A model generated the notes under the pieces. It had not been told where the DNA came from, searched no databases, and was given only the letters and a program-made list of their open reading frames with translations. DNA of 4,767 nucleotides, from IMG/VR virus record IMGVR_UViG_3300029254_000143; one strand, given 5' to 3'. The stretch comes from a virus (Duplodnaviria; Heunggongvirae; Uroviricota; Caudoviricetes). Shown here one piece after another: positions 1 to 4,767 of the stretch. The translations under genes and the position numbers were made by a program. The stretch's first letter is position 1; every line of letters starts with the position of its first letter.

Positions 1-453
1 CCCTGTGGCACCCTGTGGACCTGTGTCCCCCTTCTCGCCCGCCGGTCCCCGGGCATTCTCTGCCCGTTTCTTCGCTTCCTCTGCACTCGCCGCCGACGCT
101 TCAGCACGCTTCAGGATTTCCGCTGCCACCGCTTCCAGCTCTGCAAGCGCTTTCGGGTAATACTGCGCCTCATCCTGTTCCATCAGAAATTTATTCAGCG
201 TTCCCGGCTCAGAATCCGCCTTCACCAGAATGTCACCCACATACGACGGGGCGTACCCTTCCGTGTTCAGCGTCACCCGGTACCACCCCGGCTCCACATC
301 AAAACTGTAACTGCCGGTTTCCCCCGGCTGCCCCTGCGCCACCGTGGTGACTATCACTGTCTCTGTGGTGCGTCGCGCTTTCAGCTCTATGGTGCATCCC
401 GGCACCGGCTTCCCGGTGCCGTCCTTCAGCACGCCCGATATTCTGACTGTCAT
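1..453 (-). CDS. stf: Side tail fibre protein (lambda Stf-like), N-terminal 151 codons; CDS continues beyond the window start
   Basis: Minus-strand translation from ATG (453-451) gives MTVRISGVLKDGTGKPVPGCTIELKARRTTETVIVTTVAQGQPGETGSYSFDVEPGWYRVTLNTEGYAPSYVGDILVKADSEPGTLNKFLMEQDEAQYYPKALAELEAVAAEILKRAEASAASAEEAKKRAENARGPAGEKGDTGPQGATG, open to position 1. The first ~90 residues resemble the N-terminus of lambda Stf as I recall it (MAVKISGVLKDGTGKPV...LKARR...). A GGGAG Shine-Dalgarno lies 6 nt upstream (464-460). An in-frame stop at 489-487 makes this ATG the first possible start. The ORF is absent from the six-frame track only because it has no stop inside the window. Confidence 0.85.
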   Translation of the reverse strand, partial: MTVRISGVLKDGTGKPVPGCTIELKARRTTETVIVTTVAQGQPGETGSYSFDVEPGWYRVTLNTEGYAPSYVGDILVKADSEPGTLNKFLMEQDEAQYYPKALAELEAVAAEILKRAEASAASAEEAKKRAENARGPAGEKGDTGPQGATG

Positions 454-466
454 AGATTTCTCCCAT

Positions 467-500
467 AAAAAAAACCGCAGTACCGGTTACCCGGTCTGCG
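467..500 (-). terminator. Rho-independent terminator between J and stf (minus-strand orientation)
   Basis: Read on the minus strand: a 10-bp GC-rich stem with a 1-nt bulge (plus 476-480/496-500 and 482-486/491-495) and a GUAA tetraloop, followed by G and U8 (plus A-run 467-474). RNA: CGCAGACCGGGUAACCGGUACUGCGGUUUUUUUU. The U-tract ends 3 nt before the stf Shine-Dalgarno. Confidence 0.75.
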
Positions 501-535
501 CTCAGAGGTATAAATTGTGACTGGCTGGTGTTAAA

Positions 536-560
536 GGGTGCCGTCAGTCAAAGGCACCCG
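536..560. other. Inverted repeat / hairpin GGGTGCC-N11-GGCACCC in the J-stf spacer
   Basis: Perfect 7-bp inverted repeat (536-542 and 554-560) with an 11-nt loop. On the minus-strand RNA it is followed only by UUUAAC, so it is at best a weak terminator. It may be an RNA stability element or a protein-binding palindrome. Confidence 0.4.
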
Positions 561-637
561 TGGATAATGTACGATGTCCGGCTTTTGTCGTTTTCCGGCA
601 ATCACGAACAGATGGATGAAACCTCACTATCCACCTG

Positions 638-3600
638 TCACGATGCGGTATCAAAATCGTCTGTATAGGATTTCAGGTAAAACAGAACCGGGTCCGGGAT
701 CCGAATTTGACTCGTATCATGAAGTATTGAACCACCCCTGTAAAAAAGCACACCTGCTTCATACCTGAATGTAATTTCAACCCGCGCATCACCCTGTCCG
801 GCAGGAATACCCCATGAGCCTGACGCACTTCCGCCAACATCAGAATATACCGGCTCATATCTGCTGGCGTTTTTGGAAATCTGGACCTCCCGCTCCCCGG
901 TTTTGACTTTGCCTGACCTGGCATGAACGACAACTTTGTCATTTATCTTCATGATGAATTCACCTCTGGAAAATGAATACGCCATAAGCATAAGCTTGCG
1001 ATCAAACGGCATGTTGTCTTTCAGCAAAATCATTTTCTGAAAAGTCAGCTGGTTCTGAGTCATTACGCCCTGCCCCATATCAACCGTGTATCCCTTGACG
1101 ATATCACCAATGATTCGGTCAGCGCTCATCGTTCCATTAATGGTGCAGTCTTCCGCAATCGTCACGTTATTCAGTACCCCGGCACTGGCCGTTATCGTCC
1201 CGCTGATATCGGCATTACGGGCCGTCAGCCTGCCGTCCGGCGTCAGGGAGAATGCCGGGGGATTGCCGCCGCTGGTAATGGTGGGGGCGGTAAGAACCTT
1301 TATCAGGGCCTCATTGATAAACGTCTGTCCCCCCTGCGTGACCAGTGCGGGTGTGGTATCACCATTCTCCGGATTAATGAATGCCACGCGGTCCGCTGCC
1401 AGCAGTATCTGGCTCTGCATCCCGTCAGGGGTGTTCTCAATACCGGCACCGATACCGGCAATATAGCGACGACCATCCTGCATCTGCTGTAGCTTCACCG
1501 CCCACATGCTGTTCAGGTCATTATTTGTGTCCGTCTGCACACGCTGGATTTGCTGTATGGTGGCGTTCTGGTCCTCCAGCGTTTTACTGACCGTCTGCGT
1601 GATTTCATTGCGGGTTTCTGTGATGGTGGTCTGCATTTCCGCCATCTCGTCCTTCAGCTGACTGTTGTCAATCTCTGCCCACAGCGCCTCTGCCAGATGC
1701 GTTTTTCCTATCTTTTCCCGGAAAAGTTCCAGATAACCCGCAGCATCATTGCTCGCCCGTCCACTGGCTTCCACAAAAGCAGATTTACCCACCAGGTTGA
1801 CGCTGCGCACATAAAACCAGAAATCCTTTCCGGGCTTAATGTGCGGACCGGAGACACTCCACTGACTGCCGGTCCCCAGATAACGGGCAGAGGTTTCCAC
1901 CTGTGCGGCGTCTGCAATTTTTGCCTCCGAAAACCAGAACTCAAACTGCACCGTCGGGTCATACACCGCAAGACGCGGGACTGCCGTTATCTGAAAATAC
2001 CCCGGCGTCAGTTCAACACCGGCAGGCGCTGCCGGTGCGTTAATCCGGAACGTGGTGGTGGCGGGTTCGCCCTGCTGGCCATAGCTGTTAATCGCCCTGA
2101 CCGTCAGGGTGTATTCCCCGGGAGGCAGGCCACTGAAACGGTGCTCCGTATCGGCAGTGATGGCGGTGGTCAGCAGGCGGCTGTTCTCACCGCTTCCACT
2201 GGTCAGGCGCAGACTGAAGCGCACGCCCTTCACCACCCTCGGCGTGTCCCATTTCGCCAGCGCCAGATACTGGCTGTCAGCTGCGCTCACCTCCACCGTC
2301 AGGTGCTGCACTGCCGGTGGGATGACGCTGTTCAGGGAGCCTGACTGCGGCTCAAAGCGGGCACCGTTATCCACGATGGCTTCTTTTTCCGGTACGTGCT
2401 GCACCGCCGTGATGGCAAAGGTGCCGTCCGTGTTTTCCCGGATGGCCACACAGCGGAACAGGCGACGGCGCAGTGACGGCAGGGAGAGTCCCCACACCCC
2501 GTATGTCTCCACACCATCAGGCAGGGTACTGACCTGTATCCGGTCCGGCGCGGGGTGTGCGGTGATGTCCACACTCACCGGCTTACCGCTGCCGTTAATC
2601 AGGTTCACCGTCGATGCACCTGTCCCCGGAAGTGTCACTTCACGGTCCAGCGTCAGGGTGCGGGTGGCAGCATCAATGGACAGGACACGTCCGCCGGTCA
2701 GGGTTCCGGCATAGTCGTTATCACAGATTTCAATGATGTCGCCGGGTGTGTGACGCAGCCCCTGTGACCCGAGTGTGAAATCCACCGTCTGCGTTTCCAG
2801 CAGTTCTGTCTTTATCACCCACAGTCCGGCACGGTGGGCCTGACCGCGGCTGGTACAGCCGAACGCGTCCATCTTCAGCAGGTTGCGTCCGTAGCGCAGT
2901 ATGGCTTCCGGGTCTTCCACCAGTTCCGTGGAGGTCTGCCAGCCGTTCTGCGGGTCGGTGTAATTCACCTCCACCGCCGTGTGCCGGTCCTTCAGGGCAC
3001 TGAAGCTGTAGCGGAACCCCACGCCGTTATCATCCACCACCACATCGCTGTTGGTGTACGGCCACACCACATCCGACGGGCGGTCCTGAACGAACGTCAG
3101 CGTCTGGCCGTTCCATACCGGCATACAGCGCATCGCCGAGCAGAAATCACTGAGAACGTCCCACGCCTTACGCTGTTGTGCCAGGTACGCATTAAAGGTC
3201 ATCCGCGGCTCTGTGCCCCCGAAACCATCCGGGACCGTCTGGTCGCAGTACTGCCCGATGGCATACAGCGCCCACTTGTCCACATCCGCCGCCCCCAGGC
3301 GTTTTCCCATGCCGTAGCGCGGGTGAGTCAGCATGTCCCACAGGCACCAGGCCGGGTTATTGCTGTATGCCGGTTTCAGACTGCCGTCCCAGATACCACT
3401 GTACGTGCGTTTTTCCGGGTCATAGTTTGACGGCACCTGGATGATGCGACCGCGGATATGGTAGTTCACCGTCATCTGCTGGCCACCGAACTGCTCCGCA
3501 TCCACCTGCAGCCCCACAATGGCCGTGTTCGGGTAGCACTGTTTCACATCGATGATTTCGGTGTATGACGACCAGAGCGTCTTATTCTGCAGCTGGTCCG

Positions 3601-4168
3601 TGGTGCTGTCCGCCGTCTCCCTGACCATCCGGATGTTAAAGGGCCGGGGCGGCAGATTATCCAGAATCACCGACGCCAGGAACTGCGAGGTGGTCTTGCC
3701 GTTAATGGTGACATCCTTTTCCGTCATCCATTTACCACCACGCTCAAGCTGAATCAGCAGGCGGACAGACGTCGGGTTACGGTCACCCTTTGAGGTGGTC
3801 TCCACCAGTGACTGCACCCCGAAGGTAACCCGCAGGCGGTCAATGTTCGCGGACGTAATGGTGCGCGTCACCGGCTTTGCCTTCGTCACTTCCACACCCA
3901 GTACAGTTTCAGCTCCGGAGGACTCAAAGCCTTCCGGTGGTGTCTGCTCCTGCTCCCCGGCACGCCAGACCGCTGTCACACCGTGTATCACGGGATTACC
4001 GTCCGTGTCCGTCAGCGGGGTTTTGTTCACCAGAATACTCTGCAGGCCTTTCACCGGACCTTCAATGGGTCCCTCACCAATCGCATCAATCACGCTCATC
4101 ATCTGCGTGGATTTGAGATTATCCTTCGCCTCACGAGGCGTGTGTGCCTTGCCGCCACCTTTACCCAC
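638..4168 (-). CDS. J: Host specificity / central tail fibre (tail tip) protein J, lambda gpJ family, 1176 aa
   Basis: Single long minus-strand ORF (track 638..4213). The translation is collinear with lambda gpJ as I recall it: N-terminus (V/M)GKGGGKAHTPREAKDNLKSTQ versus lambda MGKGSSKGHTPREAKDNLKST, and conserved blocks such as NKTLWSSYTEIIDVKQCYPNTA, WCLWDMLTHPRYGMGKRLGAADVDKWALY, RLFRCVAIRENTDGTFAITAVQHVPEKEAIVDNGA and APTITSGGNPPAFSLTPDGRLTARNADISG. Start placed at GTG 4168-4166, which aligns with lambda Met1 and is preceded by CAGGAGAGGGGGACAGA (GGAG and AGGGGG, 5-11 nt upstream). Stop TGA at 640-638. Confidence 0.95.
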   Translation of the reverse strand: MGKGGGKAHTPREAKDNLKSTQMMSVIDAIGEGPIEGPVKGLQSILVNKTPLTDTDGNPVIHGVTAVWRAGEQEQTPPEGFESSGAETVLGVEVTKAKPVTRTITSANIDRLRVTFGVQSLVETTSKGDRNPTSVRLLIQLERGGKWMTEKDVTINGKTTSQFLASVILDNLPPRPFNIRMVRETADSTTDQLQNKTLWSSYTEIIDVKQCYPNTAIVGLQVDAEQFGGQQMTVNYHIRGRIIQVPSNYDPEKRTYSGIWDGSLKPAYSNNPAWCLWDMLTHPRYGMGKRLGAADVDKWALYAIGQYCDQTVPDGFGGTEPRMTFNAYLAQQRKAWDVLSDFCSAMRCMPVWNGQTLTFVQDRPSDVVWPYTNSDVVVDDNGVGFRYSFSALKDRHTAVEVNYTDPQNGWQTSTELVEDPEAILRYGRNLLKMDAFGCTSRGQAHRAGLWVIKTELLETQTVDFTLGSQGLRHTPGDIIEICDNDYAGTLTGGRVLSIDAATRTLTLDREVTLPGTGASTVNLINGSGKPVSVDITAHPAPDRIQVSTLPDGVETYGVWGLSLPSLRRRLFRCVAIRENTDGTFAITAVQHVPEKEAIVDNGARFEPQSGSLNSVIPPAVQHLTVEVSAADSQYLALAKWDTPRVVKGVRFSLRLTSGSGENSRLLTTAITADTEHRFSGLPPGEYTLTVRAINSYGQQGEPATTTFRINAPAAPAGVELTPGYFQITAVPRLAVYDPTVQFEFWFSEAKIADAAQVETSARYLGTGSQWSVSGPHIKPGKDFWFYVRSVNLVGKSAFVEASGRASNDAAGYLELFREKIGKTHLAEALWAEIDNSQLKDEMAEMQTTITETRNEITQTVSKTLEDQNATIQQIQRVQTDTNNDLNSMWAVKLQQMQDGRRYIAGIGAGIENTPDGMQSQILLAADRVAFINPENGDTTPALVTQGGQTFINEALIKVLTAPTITSGGNPPAFSLTPDGRLTARNADISGTITASAGVLNNVTIAEDCTINGTMSADRIIGDIVKGYTVDMGQGVMTQNQLTFQKMILLKDNMPFDRKLMLMAYSFSRGEFIMKINDKVVVHARSGKVKTGEREVQISKNASRYEPVYSDVGGSASGSWGIPAGQGDARVEITFRYEAGVLFYRGGSILHDTSQIRIPDPVLFYLKSYTDDFDTAS

Positions 4169-4185
4169 TCTGTCCCCCTCTCCTG
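4169..4185 (-). promoter_or_regulatory. Ribosome-binding region of J
   Basis: Minus-strand sequence CAGGAGAGGGGGACAGA immediately 5' of the GTG start. The purine-rich GGAG / AGGGGG is at appropriate spacing. Confidence 0.6.
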
Positions 4186-4211
4186 TCTGATGTCTGAATC
4201 TGTTTATGCCC

Positions 4212-4243
4212 AAAAAACAACAGGCACCCCGGAGAATGCCTGT
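4212..4243 (-). terminator. Putative weak intrinsic terminator on the minus strand, just downstream of the small ORF and upstream of the J RBS
   Basis: 7-bp stem (plus 4220-4226 / 4237-4243; ACAGGCA / TGCCTGT) with a 10-nt loop. On the minus-strand RNA it is followed by UGUUUUUUGGG (plus A-run 4212-4217). The stem is shorter and less GC-rich than the other two terminators, so the call is tentative. Confidence 0.45.
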
Positions 4244-4244
4244 A

Positions 4245-4340
4245 TCATGACTGAATAAAAATTCTGAATATCTTCACATTTTCACAAACTGACTGTGGCG
4301 CGTATAATTTCGCTGCGTTAGTGTTTTTTTGCCGTGACAT
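4245..4340 (-). CDS. Candidate small ORF, 31 aa (MSRQKNTNAAKLYAPQSVCENVKIFRIFIQS), hypothetical protein
   Basis: Minus-strand ATG at 4340-4338 preceded by a canonical AAGGAG Shine-Dalgarno (4356-4351) with a 10-nt spacer. 31 sense codons, then TGA (4247-4245), followed directly by the hairpin and U-run at 4243-4212. It lies in AT-rich DNA, where open frames of this length are less likely by chance. I recognise no family and the peptide is not hydrophobic. It is too short for the supplied ORF track. It could be an artefact of the antisense RNA gene on the opposite strand. Confidence 0.3.
   Translation of the reverse strand: MSRQKNTNAAKLYAPQSVCENVKIFRIFIQS
4273..4308 (+). promoter_or_regulatory. 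Sigma70-type promoter on the plus strand (antisense to the tail genes): -35 TTCACA (4281-4286), 16-bp spacer, -10 TATAAT (4303-4308)
   Basis: Perfect consensus -10 hexamer TATAAT. The -35 matches TTGACA at 5 of 6 positions with a 16-bp spacer. A tandem TTCACA copy sits at 4273-4278 and an A/T-rich UP-like tract at 4254-4272. Predicted start is around 4315. A strong plus-strand terminator lies ~100 nt downstream. Confidence 0.5.
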
Positions 4341-4413
4341 AAAAAAACAACTCCTTAACACTAATCTTCATTTGTCTGTCCCCGCAGCTCCGCGATCACT
4401 GCGGGATTTTTTT
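4315..4413 (+). ncRNA. Candidate ~100-nt small RNA (antisense to the RBS and start of the 31-codon ORF), from the promoter to the intrinsic terminator
   Basis: Bounded by the TATAAT promoter and the terminator at 4381-4413. No plausible plus-strand ORF or RBS. Predicted structure: a 5' stem (4318-4325 UUAGUGUU pairing with 4357-4364 AACACUAA, extended by U7 4324-4330 pairing with A7 4341-4347), a single-stranded U/AU-rich linker AUCUUCAUUUGUCUGUC (4364-4380), and a terminator hairpin with U7. Contains a CUCCUU anti-Shine-Dalgarno-like motif (4351-4356). Confidence 0.45.
4381..4413 (+). terminator. Rho-independent terminator, plus-strand orientation
   Basis: Perfect 7-bp stem CCCGCAG (4381-4387) / CTGCGGG (4399-4405) with 6 of 7 GC pairs and an 11-nt loop, then A and T7 (4407-4413). 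On the minus strand the hairpin is preceded by the A-run and not followed by U, so it is unidirectional for plus-strand transcripts. It ends 5 nt before the stop codon of gene I. Confidence 0.8.
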
Positions 4414-4418
4414 ATGTT

Positions 4419-4767
4419 TTATCCCTGTCGACCAATAACCACCACCTTTCCGCCCCCGCCTTCATCACGGGTGCTGATGTCCTGAGAGATACGTCGTGAA
4501 CCAACCAGCATTTCCCCGTAAGACACCGGCATCGGGTTACCCTGGGCAATCATGTTGTCCAGCGAGGAAAAGTACGTGTTCTGTTTACCGTTATCCGTTG
4601 CCCGGTAATCCGGTGTCTTTGCCTTCGGGGCAAGCATCTGCGCCACACCACCCAGAATCATGCTGGCACCCAGTGAAAACAGCATCGTGGTGGCAGAAAA
4701 ACCACCGGCTGCCAGGGCTGAACCCCATAACGCCATTGATGCCCCGGCCGTGAAGAAAGACCCCACA
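4419..4767 (-). CDS. I: Tail assembly protein I (lambda gpI-like), C-terminal ~115 codons; 5' end lies beyond the window
   Basis: Minus-strand translation ...GSFFTAGASMALWGSALAAGGFSATTMLFSLGASMILGGVAQMLAPKAKTPDYRATDNGKQNTYFSSLDNMIAQGNPMPVSYGEMLVGSRRISQDISTRDEGGGGKVVVIGRQG, stop TAA at 4421-4419. This closely resembles the C-terminal part of lambda gpI as I recall it (...GSFFTAGA...LFSLGASMVLGGVAQMLAPKA...TDNGKQNTYFSSLDNMVAQGN...YGEM.VGSR..SQ.IST.DEG.GG.VVVIGR). The Met at 4766 is internal and the frame is open to the window edge. Confidence 0.85.
   Translation of the reverse strand, partial: VGSFFTAGASMALWGSALAAGGFSATTMLFSLGASMILGGVAQMLAPKAKTPDYRATDNGKQNTYFSSLDNMIAQGNPMPVSYGEMLVGSRRISQDISTRDEGGGGKVVVIGRQG

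What the first reader, a model, noticed from the sequence alone, without database searches (positions are those of the whole stretch)
454..637. J is followed directly by stf with no lom/ail-type gene; a strong terminator ends 3 nt before the stf RBS
In lambda, lom lies between J and stf. Here only a 184-bp non-coding spacer separates them. It contains a GGGTGCC/GGCACCC hairpin and a strong hairpin with U8 whose U-tract finishes 3 nt upstream of the stf SD. Without read-through or antitermination, transcription from J would stop before stf, so side-fibre expression may be conditionally regulated or may depend on late antitermination.
Basis: partly seen in the sequence, partly recalled or inferred. 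Interest (0 to 1): 0.4.

Follow-up and report, generated by a model that had tools for sequence, protein, structure and literature searches.

The report
Decayed hok/sok toxin module before stf
The gap between the tail-tip gene J and the side-fibre gene stf is the deleted remnant of a small toxin-antitoxin (hok/sok) cassette that replaces lom in this phage lineage, and its terminator next to the stf start is an ordinary feature shared by lambda and all sampled relatives.

Summary
All genes lie on the minus strand. J ends at 638 and stf starts at 453. The 184-nt spacer has no lom, a GGGTGCC/GGCACCC hairpin (559-536), and a strong hairpin plus U8 (500-467) ending 2 nt before the stf Shine-Dalgarno.

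The interpretation misses two points.

First, a hairpin plus T-run 11-16 nt before the stf ATG is present in 127 of 128 stf loci examined, including lambda, where it follows lom. Three unrelated stem families each travel with the upstream cargo.

Second, the window's stem family belongs to a hok/sok-like type I toxin-antitoxin cassette. This cassette fills the J-stf slot in lom-less relatives (Pfam HOK_GEF 43.5 bits; Rfam sok E 1.9e-10; PGAP "Hok/Gef").

The window keeps only the two ends of that cassette. About 332 nt, holding the toxin ORF and the sok region, were lost between GATGGC repeats. The terminator is the hok mRNA terminator.

stf is most likely transcribed by Q-modified, terminator-resistant polymerase, as in lambda. 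The closest complete phage encodes Q.

Ordinary; low interest.

The parts
1..453 (-). 5' part of stf (side tail fibre, N-terminal domain). The ORF runs off the window.
   Evidence: Translation. Pfam PF08400 phage_tail_N 149 bits. [quoted passage not shown]
460..464 (-). stf Shine-Dalgarno GGGAG, 6 nt before the ATG.
   Evidence: Sequence. The block TTTTTTTATGGGAGAAATCTATG is shared with lom-bearing relatives.
467..474 (-). U8 tract of the intrinsic terminator.
   Evidence: The T-run is 7 or 8 nt in relatives.
475..500 (-). Terminator stem-loop CGCAGACCGG-GTAA-CCGGTACTGCGG. It is the 3' terminator of the ancestral hok-like mRNA (stem family A).
   Evidence: dG -19 kcal/mol, z -5.1. Detected in the scan. 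The same stem family ends every intact hok cassette in the J-stf slot, with A-U / G-C / G-U variation at one stem position.
501..535 (-). Remnant of the 3' tail of the hok-like mRNA, lying between the fbi element and the terminator. It has a 7-nt insertion relative to intact copies.
   Evidence: The right-hand segment aligns to the last 74 nt of intact cassettes, 64/73 identical. blastn E 3.7e-10 at a 5-Mb search space.
536..542 (-). It corresponds to the fold-back (fbi-like) element near the 3' end of hok mRNA.
   Evidence: In intact relatives the MFE pairs 5' GGGUGCCUUUGGCUGAU with 3' AUCAGCCGGAUGGCACC. The same 5'-3' closure is predicted in P2-prophage hok paralogues.
540..545 (-). Deletion junction GACGGC, the single surviving copy of a GATGGC direct repeat. 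About 332 nt are missing here: the hok ORF and the leader matched by the Rfam sok model.
   Evidence: The two blastn HSPs overlap on query bases 93-98 and lie 326 nt apart in intact copies. Alignments.
553..559 (-). It corresponds to the first bases of the ancestral hok mRNA (tac-like element).
   Evidence: Position 1 of the Rfam sok/hok-leader model RF01794 aligns exactly to GGGUGC in the intact relative L062.
566..601 (-). Remnant of the presumed hok promoter: TTGCCG (601-596), 24 nt, TACATT (571-566). Intact copies have TTGCCG-17-TACAGT. A 7-nt insertion spoils the spacing here.
   Evidence: Alignment; coordinates. The promoter assignment is an inference. It matches 8 of 12 consensus positions and falls below the scan threshold in both the window and L062.
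610..636 (-). 8-bp hairpin AGGTGGAT/ATCCATCT directly after the J stop, with no T-run. It is specific to this J allele's flank.
   Evidence: Centroid structure; coordinates.
638..4168 (-). J (tail tip / host specificity protein). The probable GTG start is at 4168 and the ORF is open back to 4213.
   Evidence: ORF. Annotated as J/gpJ in relatives. The C-terminal 250 aa form a distinct allele that is always linked to the 187-nt gap.

Best explanation
The J-stf spacer is the relic of a hok/sok-like type I toxin-antitoxin cassette, a 'moron'. In this lineage of E. coli lambdoid prophages the cassette occupies the slot that lom occupies in lambda.

Intact relatives carry, between J and stf and in the same orientation:
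- a presumed promoter;
- a roughly 155-nt leader matched by the Rfam sok/hok-leader model;
- a 46-aa Hok-family ORF;
- a 3' element complementary to the 5' end of the mRNA;
- a hairpin plus U7-8 terminator that touches the stf RBS.

In the window, about 332 nt between two GATGGC repeats were deleted. The deletion removed the toxin ORF and the sok region and brought the 5' (tac-like) and 3' (fbi-like) elements together. That produced the GGGTGCC/GGCACCC hairpin. A 7-nt insertion also separates the promoter hexamers to 24 nt. What remains functional is, at most, the terminator.

Shown here: the homology, the deletion junction, the family assignments in relatives, and the universality of a terminator abutting the stf RBS.

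Inferred: the terminator stops non-antiterminated polymerase (from the cassette's own promoter in lysogens, or from spurious starts) from entering stf-tfa. During lytic growth, Q-modified polymerase from the late promoter reads through it, as it must read through the equivalent lom terminators in lambda.
For: 1. All 128 stf-homologue loci were surveyed. 127 have a hairpin (dG -9.9 to -22.6 kcal/mol) plus a T-run of at least 4 that ends 11-16 nt before the ATG. There are three main unrelated stem families (plus two single-locus variants), each linked to the upstream cargo. Family A is always lom-less, with J directly upstream wherever enough flank is held. Families B and C follow two Lom types in 80 of 84 loci; the other four have no detectable upstream gene or too little flank.
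2. Family-A relatives with a 461-489-nt gap encode MSQKPLKTTVICITVVLIIWITHSSLCEFRFRIAGAEIAAFLQCKR. This matches Pfam HOK_GEF at 43.5 bits (cutoff 22) and PHROG 251 'MokW-like host killing' at 76 bits. The leader matches Rfam RF01794 sok at E 1.9e-10. PGAP annotates 'Hok/Gef family protein' between gpJ and the tail fibre gene.
3. The window spacer aligns to both ends of that unit. The left segment is 51/60 identical and the right segment 64/73. E values are about 1e-6 and 3.7e-10. The two HSPs overlap on the 6-nt repeat.
4. MFE folds of intact mRNAs close the 5' end on the 3' element. The same closure appears in paralogues with different sequence.
5. Other relatives show independent decay of the cassette: L054 deletions, L064 frameshift, L089 leader deletion.
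6. The closest complete phage, PhiR12_5 (98.1% identity), has antiterminator Q and a lambda-like late operon, and was deposited as a phage genome with E. coli C as host.
7. Literature. Q is required for the roughly 27-kb lambda late transcript (PMC10695390). Morons carry their own promoter and terminator (PMC3594210). A phage-borne hok/sok locus, hokW-sokW, is functional (PMC8621323).
Against: - There are no expression data. Termination efficiency and Q read-through are not measured.
- The Rfam sok hit in relatives (51.1 bits) is below the family's gathering score of 59.
- The promoter assignment is weak (8 of 12 consensus positions) and was not called by the scan.
- The left-hand homology is short and needs a 7-nt gap.
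- The tac/fbi pairing rests on energy predictions and on analogy with plasmid R1 (own knowledge). There is little covariation within the close relatives.
- The relic is 98-100% identical across its carriers, so selection on it cannot be judged.
Confidence: 0.8

Rival explanations
1. The terminator is a dedicated regulatory attenuator that makes side-fibre expression conditional, setting the stf:J ratio or switching fibres on only under some conditions. The absence of lom would be part of that design.
For: The terminator is strong and sits directly before the stf RBS. The geometry is conserved across non-homologous stems. In P22, the moron upstream of the tailspike gene is thought to affect read-through of late transcription into that gene (PMC2629481).
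Against: The same geometry occurs with lom in lambda and in the PhiR5_1 type, so it is not tied to lom loss. Each stem travels with the upstream cargo as that cargo's own 3' end, not with stf. Lom-bearing phages have two terminators in the interval. Another late-strand terminator sits before J. So terminators inside this late operon are generic and are handled by Q.
Confidence: 0.12
2. The relic is still an active gene for a small RNA of about 93 nt (559 to 467). It would have a 5' hairpin and a terminator/Hfq-type 3' end and would have been co-opted as a prophage sRNA.
For: The predicted RNA has a 5' stem-loop, a single-stranded middle and a 3' hairpin plus U8. The relic persists in 39 complete genomes. 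Prophage intergenic sRNAs are common in E. coli (bioRxiv 10.64898/2026.05.13.724894).
Against: The promoter hexamers are 24 nt apart and no promoter is called there. There is no Rfam match. The carriers are too similar to show selection.
Confidence: 0.06
3. The spacer is what is left of a deleted lom gene, or lom lies elsewhere in the prophage.
For: Lom is the usual occupant of this slot. The lambda-type lom-stf junction is found in 4351 of 5426 genomes and type B in 1640.
Against: No Lom similarity is found in the window or in the whole PhiR12_5 genome. The spacer does not resemble either lom flank. It aligns instead to the hok cassette ends.
Confidence: 0.02

Closest known systems
Lambda J-lom-stf region: the lom moron and its terminator inside the Q-dependent late operon
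   Same: The slot is the same (between J and stf) and so is the orientation. In both, an intrinsic terminator has a T-run ending about 11-13 nt before the stf ATG. Both lie in a late operon served by a Q antiterminator (PMC10695390).
   Different: The cargo is unrelated: a Hok-family relic instead of the Lom beta-barrel. The stem sequence is unrelated. Lambda has a second hairpin between J and lom. The window's cargo is deleted.
hok/sok of plasmid R1 and hokW-sokW of Stx2 prophage Sp5 (type I toxin-antitoxin; Pfam PF01848, Rfam RF01794, PHROG 251)
   Same: Intact relatives have the Hok-family ORF, a leader matching the sok model, predicted 5'-3' fold-back of the mRNA, and a terminal hairpin. 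Phage-borne hok/sok is known and functional (PMC8621323).
   Different: The window has lost the toxin ORF and the entire sok region, so it cannot act as a toxin-antitoxin system. Its location between J and stf in long-tailed lambdoid prophages is annotated by PGAP, but I did not find it described in the papers searched.
Morons of HK97/HK022 and the 'ant moron' upstream of the P22 tailspike gene
   Same: Variable, dispensable cargo with its own transcription signals is inserted between late structural genes. Decayed versions occur in relatives. Read-through into the downstream fibre or spike gene is possible (PMC3594210, PMC2629481).
   Different: The phages and cargo differ. No repressor proteins are involved here.

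Membership tests
Intrinsic (Rho-independent) terminator | G+C-rich stem-loop on the transcribed strand | tested here: met
   A stem of 10 pairs with one bulge and a GUAA loop, dG -19 kcal/mol, z -5.1. It lies on the J/stf strand.
Intrinsic (Rho-independent) terminator | Uninterrupted U-tract directly 3' of the stem | tested here: met
   T8 at 474-467.
Intrinsic (Rho-independent) terminator | Releases transcripts in vivo or in vitro, and is overridden by Q-modified polymerase | not testable with these tools
   This needs Term-seq or reporter assays.
hok/sok type I toxin-antitoxin locus | Hok/Gef-family toxin ORF (PF01848) | tested here: not met
   The ORF is absent from the window because the deletion removes it. 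It is present in relatives at 43.5 bits and matches PHROG 251 at 76 bits.
hok/sok type I toxin-antitoxin locus | Leader with the Sok-complementary region / sok gene (RF01794) | tested here: not met
   There is no Rfam hit in the window. The relative L062 matches at 51.1 bits, E 1.9e-10, below the gathering score of 59.
hok/sok type I toxin-antitoxin locus | Complementary 5' (tac) and 3' (fbi) elements, with a terminal hairpin downstream of fbi | tested here: met
   Both elements are retained and now adjacent (559-553 and 542-536), followed by the terminal hairpin. Long-range closure is predicted in intact copies and in paralogues. The window is therefore a relic, not a functional member.
lom/ail moron | Ail/Lom outer-membrane beta-barrel ORF between J and stf | tested here: not met
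   tblastn with two Lom types found nothing better than E 0.14 in the window and in the full PhiR12_5 genome.
Moron (independent transcription unit inserted in a phage operon) | Present in some and absent from other, otherwise syntenic, relatives, with alternative cargo in the same slot | tested here: met
   Lom type L, Lom type R, a hok cassette or hok relics all occur between J and stf.
Moron (independent transcription unit inserted in a phage operon) | Own promoter and own terminator | tested here: inconclusive
   The terminator criterion is met. The promoter is only an 8 of 12 match in intact copies, and its spacing is 24 nt in the window.
Q-antiterminated lambdoid late operon | Q gene upstream of a single rightward lysis/head/tail operon that includes J and stf | tested here: met
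   This holds in the 98.1%-identical complete phage PhiR12_5. It is not visible inside the window itself. The qut site and the late promoter were not examined.

The most novel reading that the evidence does not exclude
The conserved placement of a cargo terminator flush against the stf RBS, seen with three non-homologous stem families, may not be a mere consequence of where morons insert. It could be a functional device. The hairpin plus U-tract might tune how much late transcription (or translation, through the U-rich leader) reaches the side-fibre genes. The shared T-run might serve as the crossover point for swapping cargo (lom, hok) between phages. Under this reading, the window keeps the terminator after losing the toxin because stf needs it.
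Probability: 0.1. Interest if true: 0.45.

Novelty: new member of a known kind. Interest (0 to 1): 0.2.

Why it matters
The result corrects the annotation of an apparently empty spacer. The J-stf slot of lambdoid prophages is a cargo site that can hold lom or a hok/sok toxin-antitoxin cassette, and this window shows the end-point of that cassette's decay.

It also shows that a terminator pressed against the stf RBS is a general property of these phages, lambda included. It should therefore not be read as a special regulatory switch.

Practical value is modest. It helps prophage annotation (Hok relics, internal terminators) and the design of engineered lambda-type phages in which cargo is placed between J and stf.

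Tried and rejected
- An Rfam scan of the whole window at E<=1 gave only two chance snoRNA-like matches inside J and nothing in the spacer.
- A promoter scan found no convincing promoter for a spacer RNA. The only candidate (654-626, 9 of 12) overlaps the J stop, and the number of sites is within chance expectation.
- I considered an sRNA between lom and stf in PhiR5_1-type phages. There was no Rfam hit and no promoter call, so I dropped it.
- I tried to identify the I-J intergenic unit with the published Pas sRNAs. No sequence match was found in the text or supplements.
- A search for literature on the lambda t'J terminators (Luk and Szybalski, recalled from memory) found nothing in the held library, so that work is not cited as evidence.
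- MAFFT misplaced the left half of the window spacer next to the deletion. Pairwise local alignment and blastn resolved it.
- Bidirectional terminator function was rejected, because there is no T-run after the stem on the + strand.
- Hairpin 1 as a terminator was rejected, because it is followed only by TTTAAC.

Full report
**Observation**

The window's genes run on the minus strand. They are the 3' end of I (4419-4766), J (ORF 638-4213, probable GTG start at 4168), and the first 151 codons of stf (1-453). The stf product matches Pfam PF08400 'Prophage tail fibre N-terminal' at 149 bits.

The J-stf spacer is 454-637, 184 nt. On the gene strand it contains two structures.
- GGGTGCC (559-553) ... 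GGCACCC (542-536), dG -13.9 kcal/mol, z -4.2.
- CGCAGACCGG-GTAA-CCGGTACTGCGG (500-475) followed by U8 (474-467), dG -19 kcal/mol, z -5.1, with no shuffle as stable.

The U-tract ends 2 nt before GGGAG and 13 nt before the ATG.

**Source and relatives**

The window is an E. coli lambdoid prophage. It is 98.1% identical over its full length to the isolated phage PhiR12_5. The junction is found in 39 of 5426 complete E. coli genomes.

Lom is absent, not misplaced. tblastn with two Lom types finds nothing in the window or in the whole PhiR12_5 genome.

**The terminator before stf is general**

In lambda, lom is followed by GCCCGCCGGAACCGGTGGGC-TTTTTT-GTGGGGTGAAT-ATG(stf). In PhiR5_1, a different lom is followed by GAAGCCCG...CGGGC-TTTTTTT-ATGGGAGAAATCT-ATG, and identity to the window begins at the T-run.

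I collected 128 loci encoding stf N-terminal homologues (40-100% identity) from viral and genome collections.
- 127 have a hairpin (dG -9.9 to -22.6 kcal/mol) plus a T-run of at least 4 that ends 11-16 nt before the start codon. The one exception is a degraded Shigella copy.
- The stems fall into three main unrelated families (plus two single-locus variants) that go with the upstream cargo. Family C follows lambda-type Lom (gap 67 nt). Family B follows a second Lom type (gap about 153 nt). Four of the 84 family B/C loci have no detectable upstream gene or too little flank.
- Family A, the window's family, is always lom-less, with J directly upstream wherever enough flank is held, and gaps of 187, 381 or 461-489 nt.

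Lom-bearing phages have a second late-strand terminator between J and lom. The window has another one just before J (4243-4220). Terminators inside this late operon are thus routine.

**What family A belongs to**

In relatives with the roughly 485-nt gap, the interval holds a 46-aa ORF, MSQKPLKTTVICITVVLIIWITHSSLCEFRFRIAGAEIAAFLQCKR.
- It matches Pfam HOK_GEF at 43.5 bits against a cutoff of 22.
- It matches PHROG 251 'MokW-like host killing' at 76 bits.
- The preceding roughly 155 nt match Rfam RF01794 (sok / hok leader) over the full model, E 1.9e-10, 51.1 bits. This is below the 59-bit gathering score. Model position 1 falls on GGGUGC.
- PGAP annotates 'Hok/Gef family protein' between gpJ and the tail-fibre gene. 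209 genomes match the cassette and 119 hold at least 80% of it.
- Phage 1720a-02 has the same 141-nt CDS, annotated as hypothetical.

MFE folds of three intact mRNAs, taken from GGGUGCC to the U-tract, pair the 5' end GGGUGCCUUUGGCUGAU with AUCAGCCGGAUGGCACC, which lies about 60 nt from the 3' end. The same 5'-3' closure is predicted for related hok copies in P2-like prophages whose pairing sequences differ. This is the fold-back (tac/fbi) architecture described for hok mRNA of plasmid R1 (my own knowledge of the Gerdes-laboratory work, not retrieved here). Phage-borne hok/sok is known to be functional, as shown for hokW-sokW of Sp5 (PMC8621323).

**The window is a deletion relic of that cassette**

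The left 67 nt of the spacer align to the presumed promoter and the first 20 nt of the mRNA (51/60 identical, with one 7-nt insertion). The right 81 nt align to the fbi element, the 3' tail and the terminator (64/73 identical).

With a 5-Mb search space the two blastn HSPs have E values of about 1e-6 and 3.7e-10. They are contiguous in the window, overlapping on GACGGC (545-540), but are 326 nt apart in intact copies. This indicates loss of about 332 nt between two GATGGC repeats. The deletion removed the Hok ORF and the whole sok-matching leader.

The presumed promoter is TTGCCG-17-TACAGT in intact copies and TTGCCG-24-TACATT in the window. Neither version passes the promoter scan, so this point is an inference.

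Other relatives show independent decay: L054 has two deletions, L064 a frameshift, and L089 a 20-nt leader deletion. The cassette is evidently dispensable.

**How it most likely works**

The hairpin plus U8 was the 3' end of the hok transcription unit. Like the lom terminators, it keeps transcription that starts in the cargo, or anywhere else without Q, out of stf-tfa.

stf is transcribed as the distal part of the late operon by Q-modified polymerase. PhiR12_5 encodes N and Q and has the lambda gene order S-R-Rz-Nu1...J-stf. In lambda, Q is required for the whole roughly 27-kb late transcript (PMC10695390). Lambdoid late operons are switched on by Q antitermination (PMC2629481). Morons characteristically bring their own promoter and terminator (PMC3594210).

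None of this was measured for this element. Termination and read-through remain inferences.

**Rival explanations**

- A dedicated attenuator for stf. This is possible, given the conserved geometry and the P22 ant-moron precedent (PMC2629481). It is not favoured, because each stem is the cargo's own 3' end and the feature is not linked to lom loss.
- A live roughly 93-nt sRNA. It has a plausible shape but no promoter and no Rfam match.
- A lom remnant. This is refuted.

**Verdict**

The spacer is a decayed member of a known toxin-antitoxin family in a known moron slot. Its terminator is an ordinary feature of lambdoid late operons. Interest is low. The only mildly novel possibility is that the flush terminator-RBS geometry is itself selected.

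Noticed in passing
window 4169-4418 (I-J intergenic region): The gap between I and J is about 250 nt, against about 60 nt in lambda. On the late strand there is a terminator, ACAGGCATTCTCCGGGGTGCCTGT plus a T-run (4243-4220, dG -15.9 kcal/mol), ahead of the J RBS. On the opposite strand there is a near-consensus promoter, TTCACA-16-TATAAT (4281-4308, 11 of 12), followed about 70 nt later by a hairpin plus T7 (4381-4412). This looks like a small antisense transcription unit. A 31-aa ORF with a good SD (4340-4245, -) is not conserved in relatives, so the region is probably non-coding. It is present in 1674 of 5426 E. coli genomes. There is no Rfam hit and no match in the Pas sRNA papers.
   Followed up: partly
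loci L022-L036, L038, L040, L047, L048 (genome-contig scan): About 20 stf hits lie in assemblies of non-enteric organisms such as Pseudomonas, Shewanella, Neobacillus and Kitasatospora. Most are on contigs labelled with low coverage, and some contigs are 48.4-48.5 kb long. Their upstream sequence is identical to lambda. This is almost certainly lambda DNA contamination of those assemblies.
   Followed up: partly
L001 5534-9063 (phage PhiR12_5): J is annotated as two CDS. tblastn shows a frame change near L001 6151. This is either a frameshifted J or a sequencing error in a phage deposited as a complete genome with E. coli C as host.
   Followed up: no
L054, L064, L089 (J-stf slot of relatives): The hok cassette has decayed independently in several relatives. 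L054 has a deletion of about 108 nt between CCGGATAGC/CCGGATGGC repeats plus a 10-nt deletion in the ORF. L064 has a +1 frameshift in the ORF. L089 has a 20-nt deletion in the leader.
   Followed up: partly
L131 1179-1791; L130 1683-1823: Related Hok/Gef genes sit next to ogr/Delta in P2-like prophages, with two tandem copies in L131. Each has its own predicted 5'-3' fold-back and terminator.
   Followed up: partly
window 610-636: An 8-bp hairpin (AGGTGGAT/ATCCATCT) lies directly after the J stop codon and has no T-run. It appears in the centroid fold. It is specific to the flank of this J allele, and its role is unknown.
   Followed up: no
window 1-1200 versus 1200-4767: There is a mosaic boundary inside J. 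Stx-converting and PPompW phages match only 1200-4766 (87-90% identity). The J C-terminal receptor-binding part, the spacer and the stf start form a separate module, shared only with PhiR12-type phages and a few genomes.
   Followed up: partly
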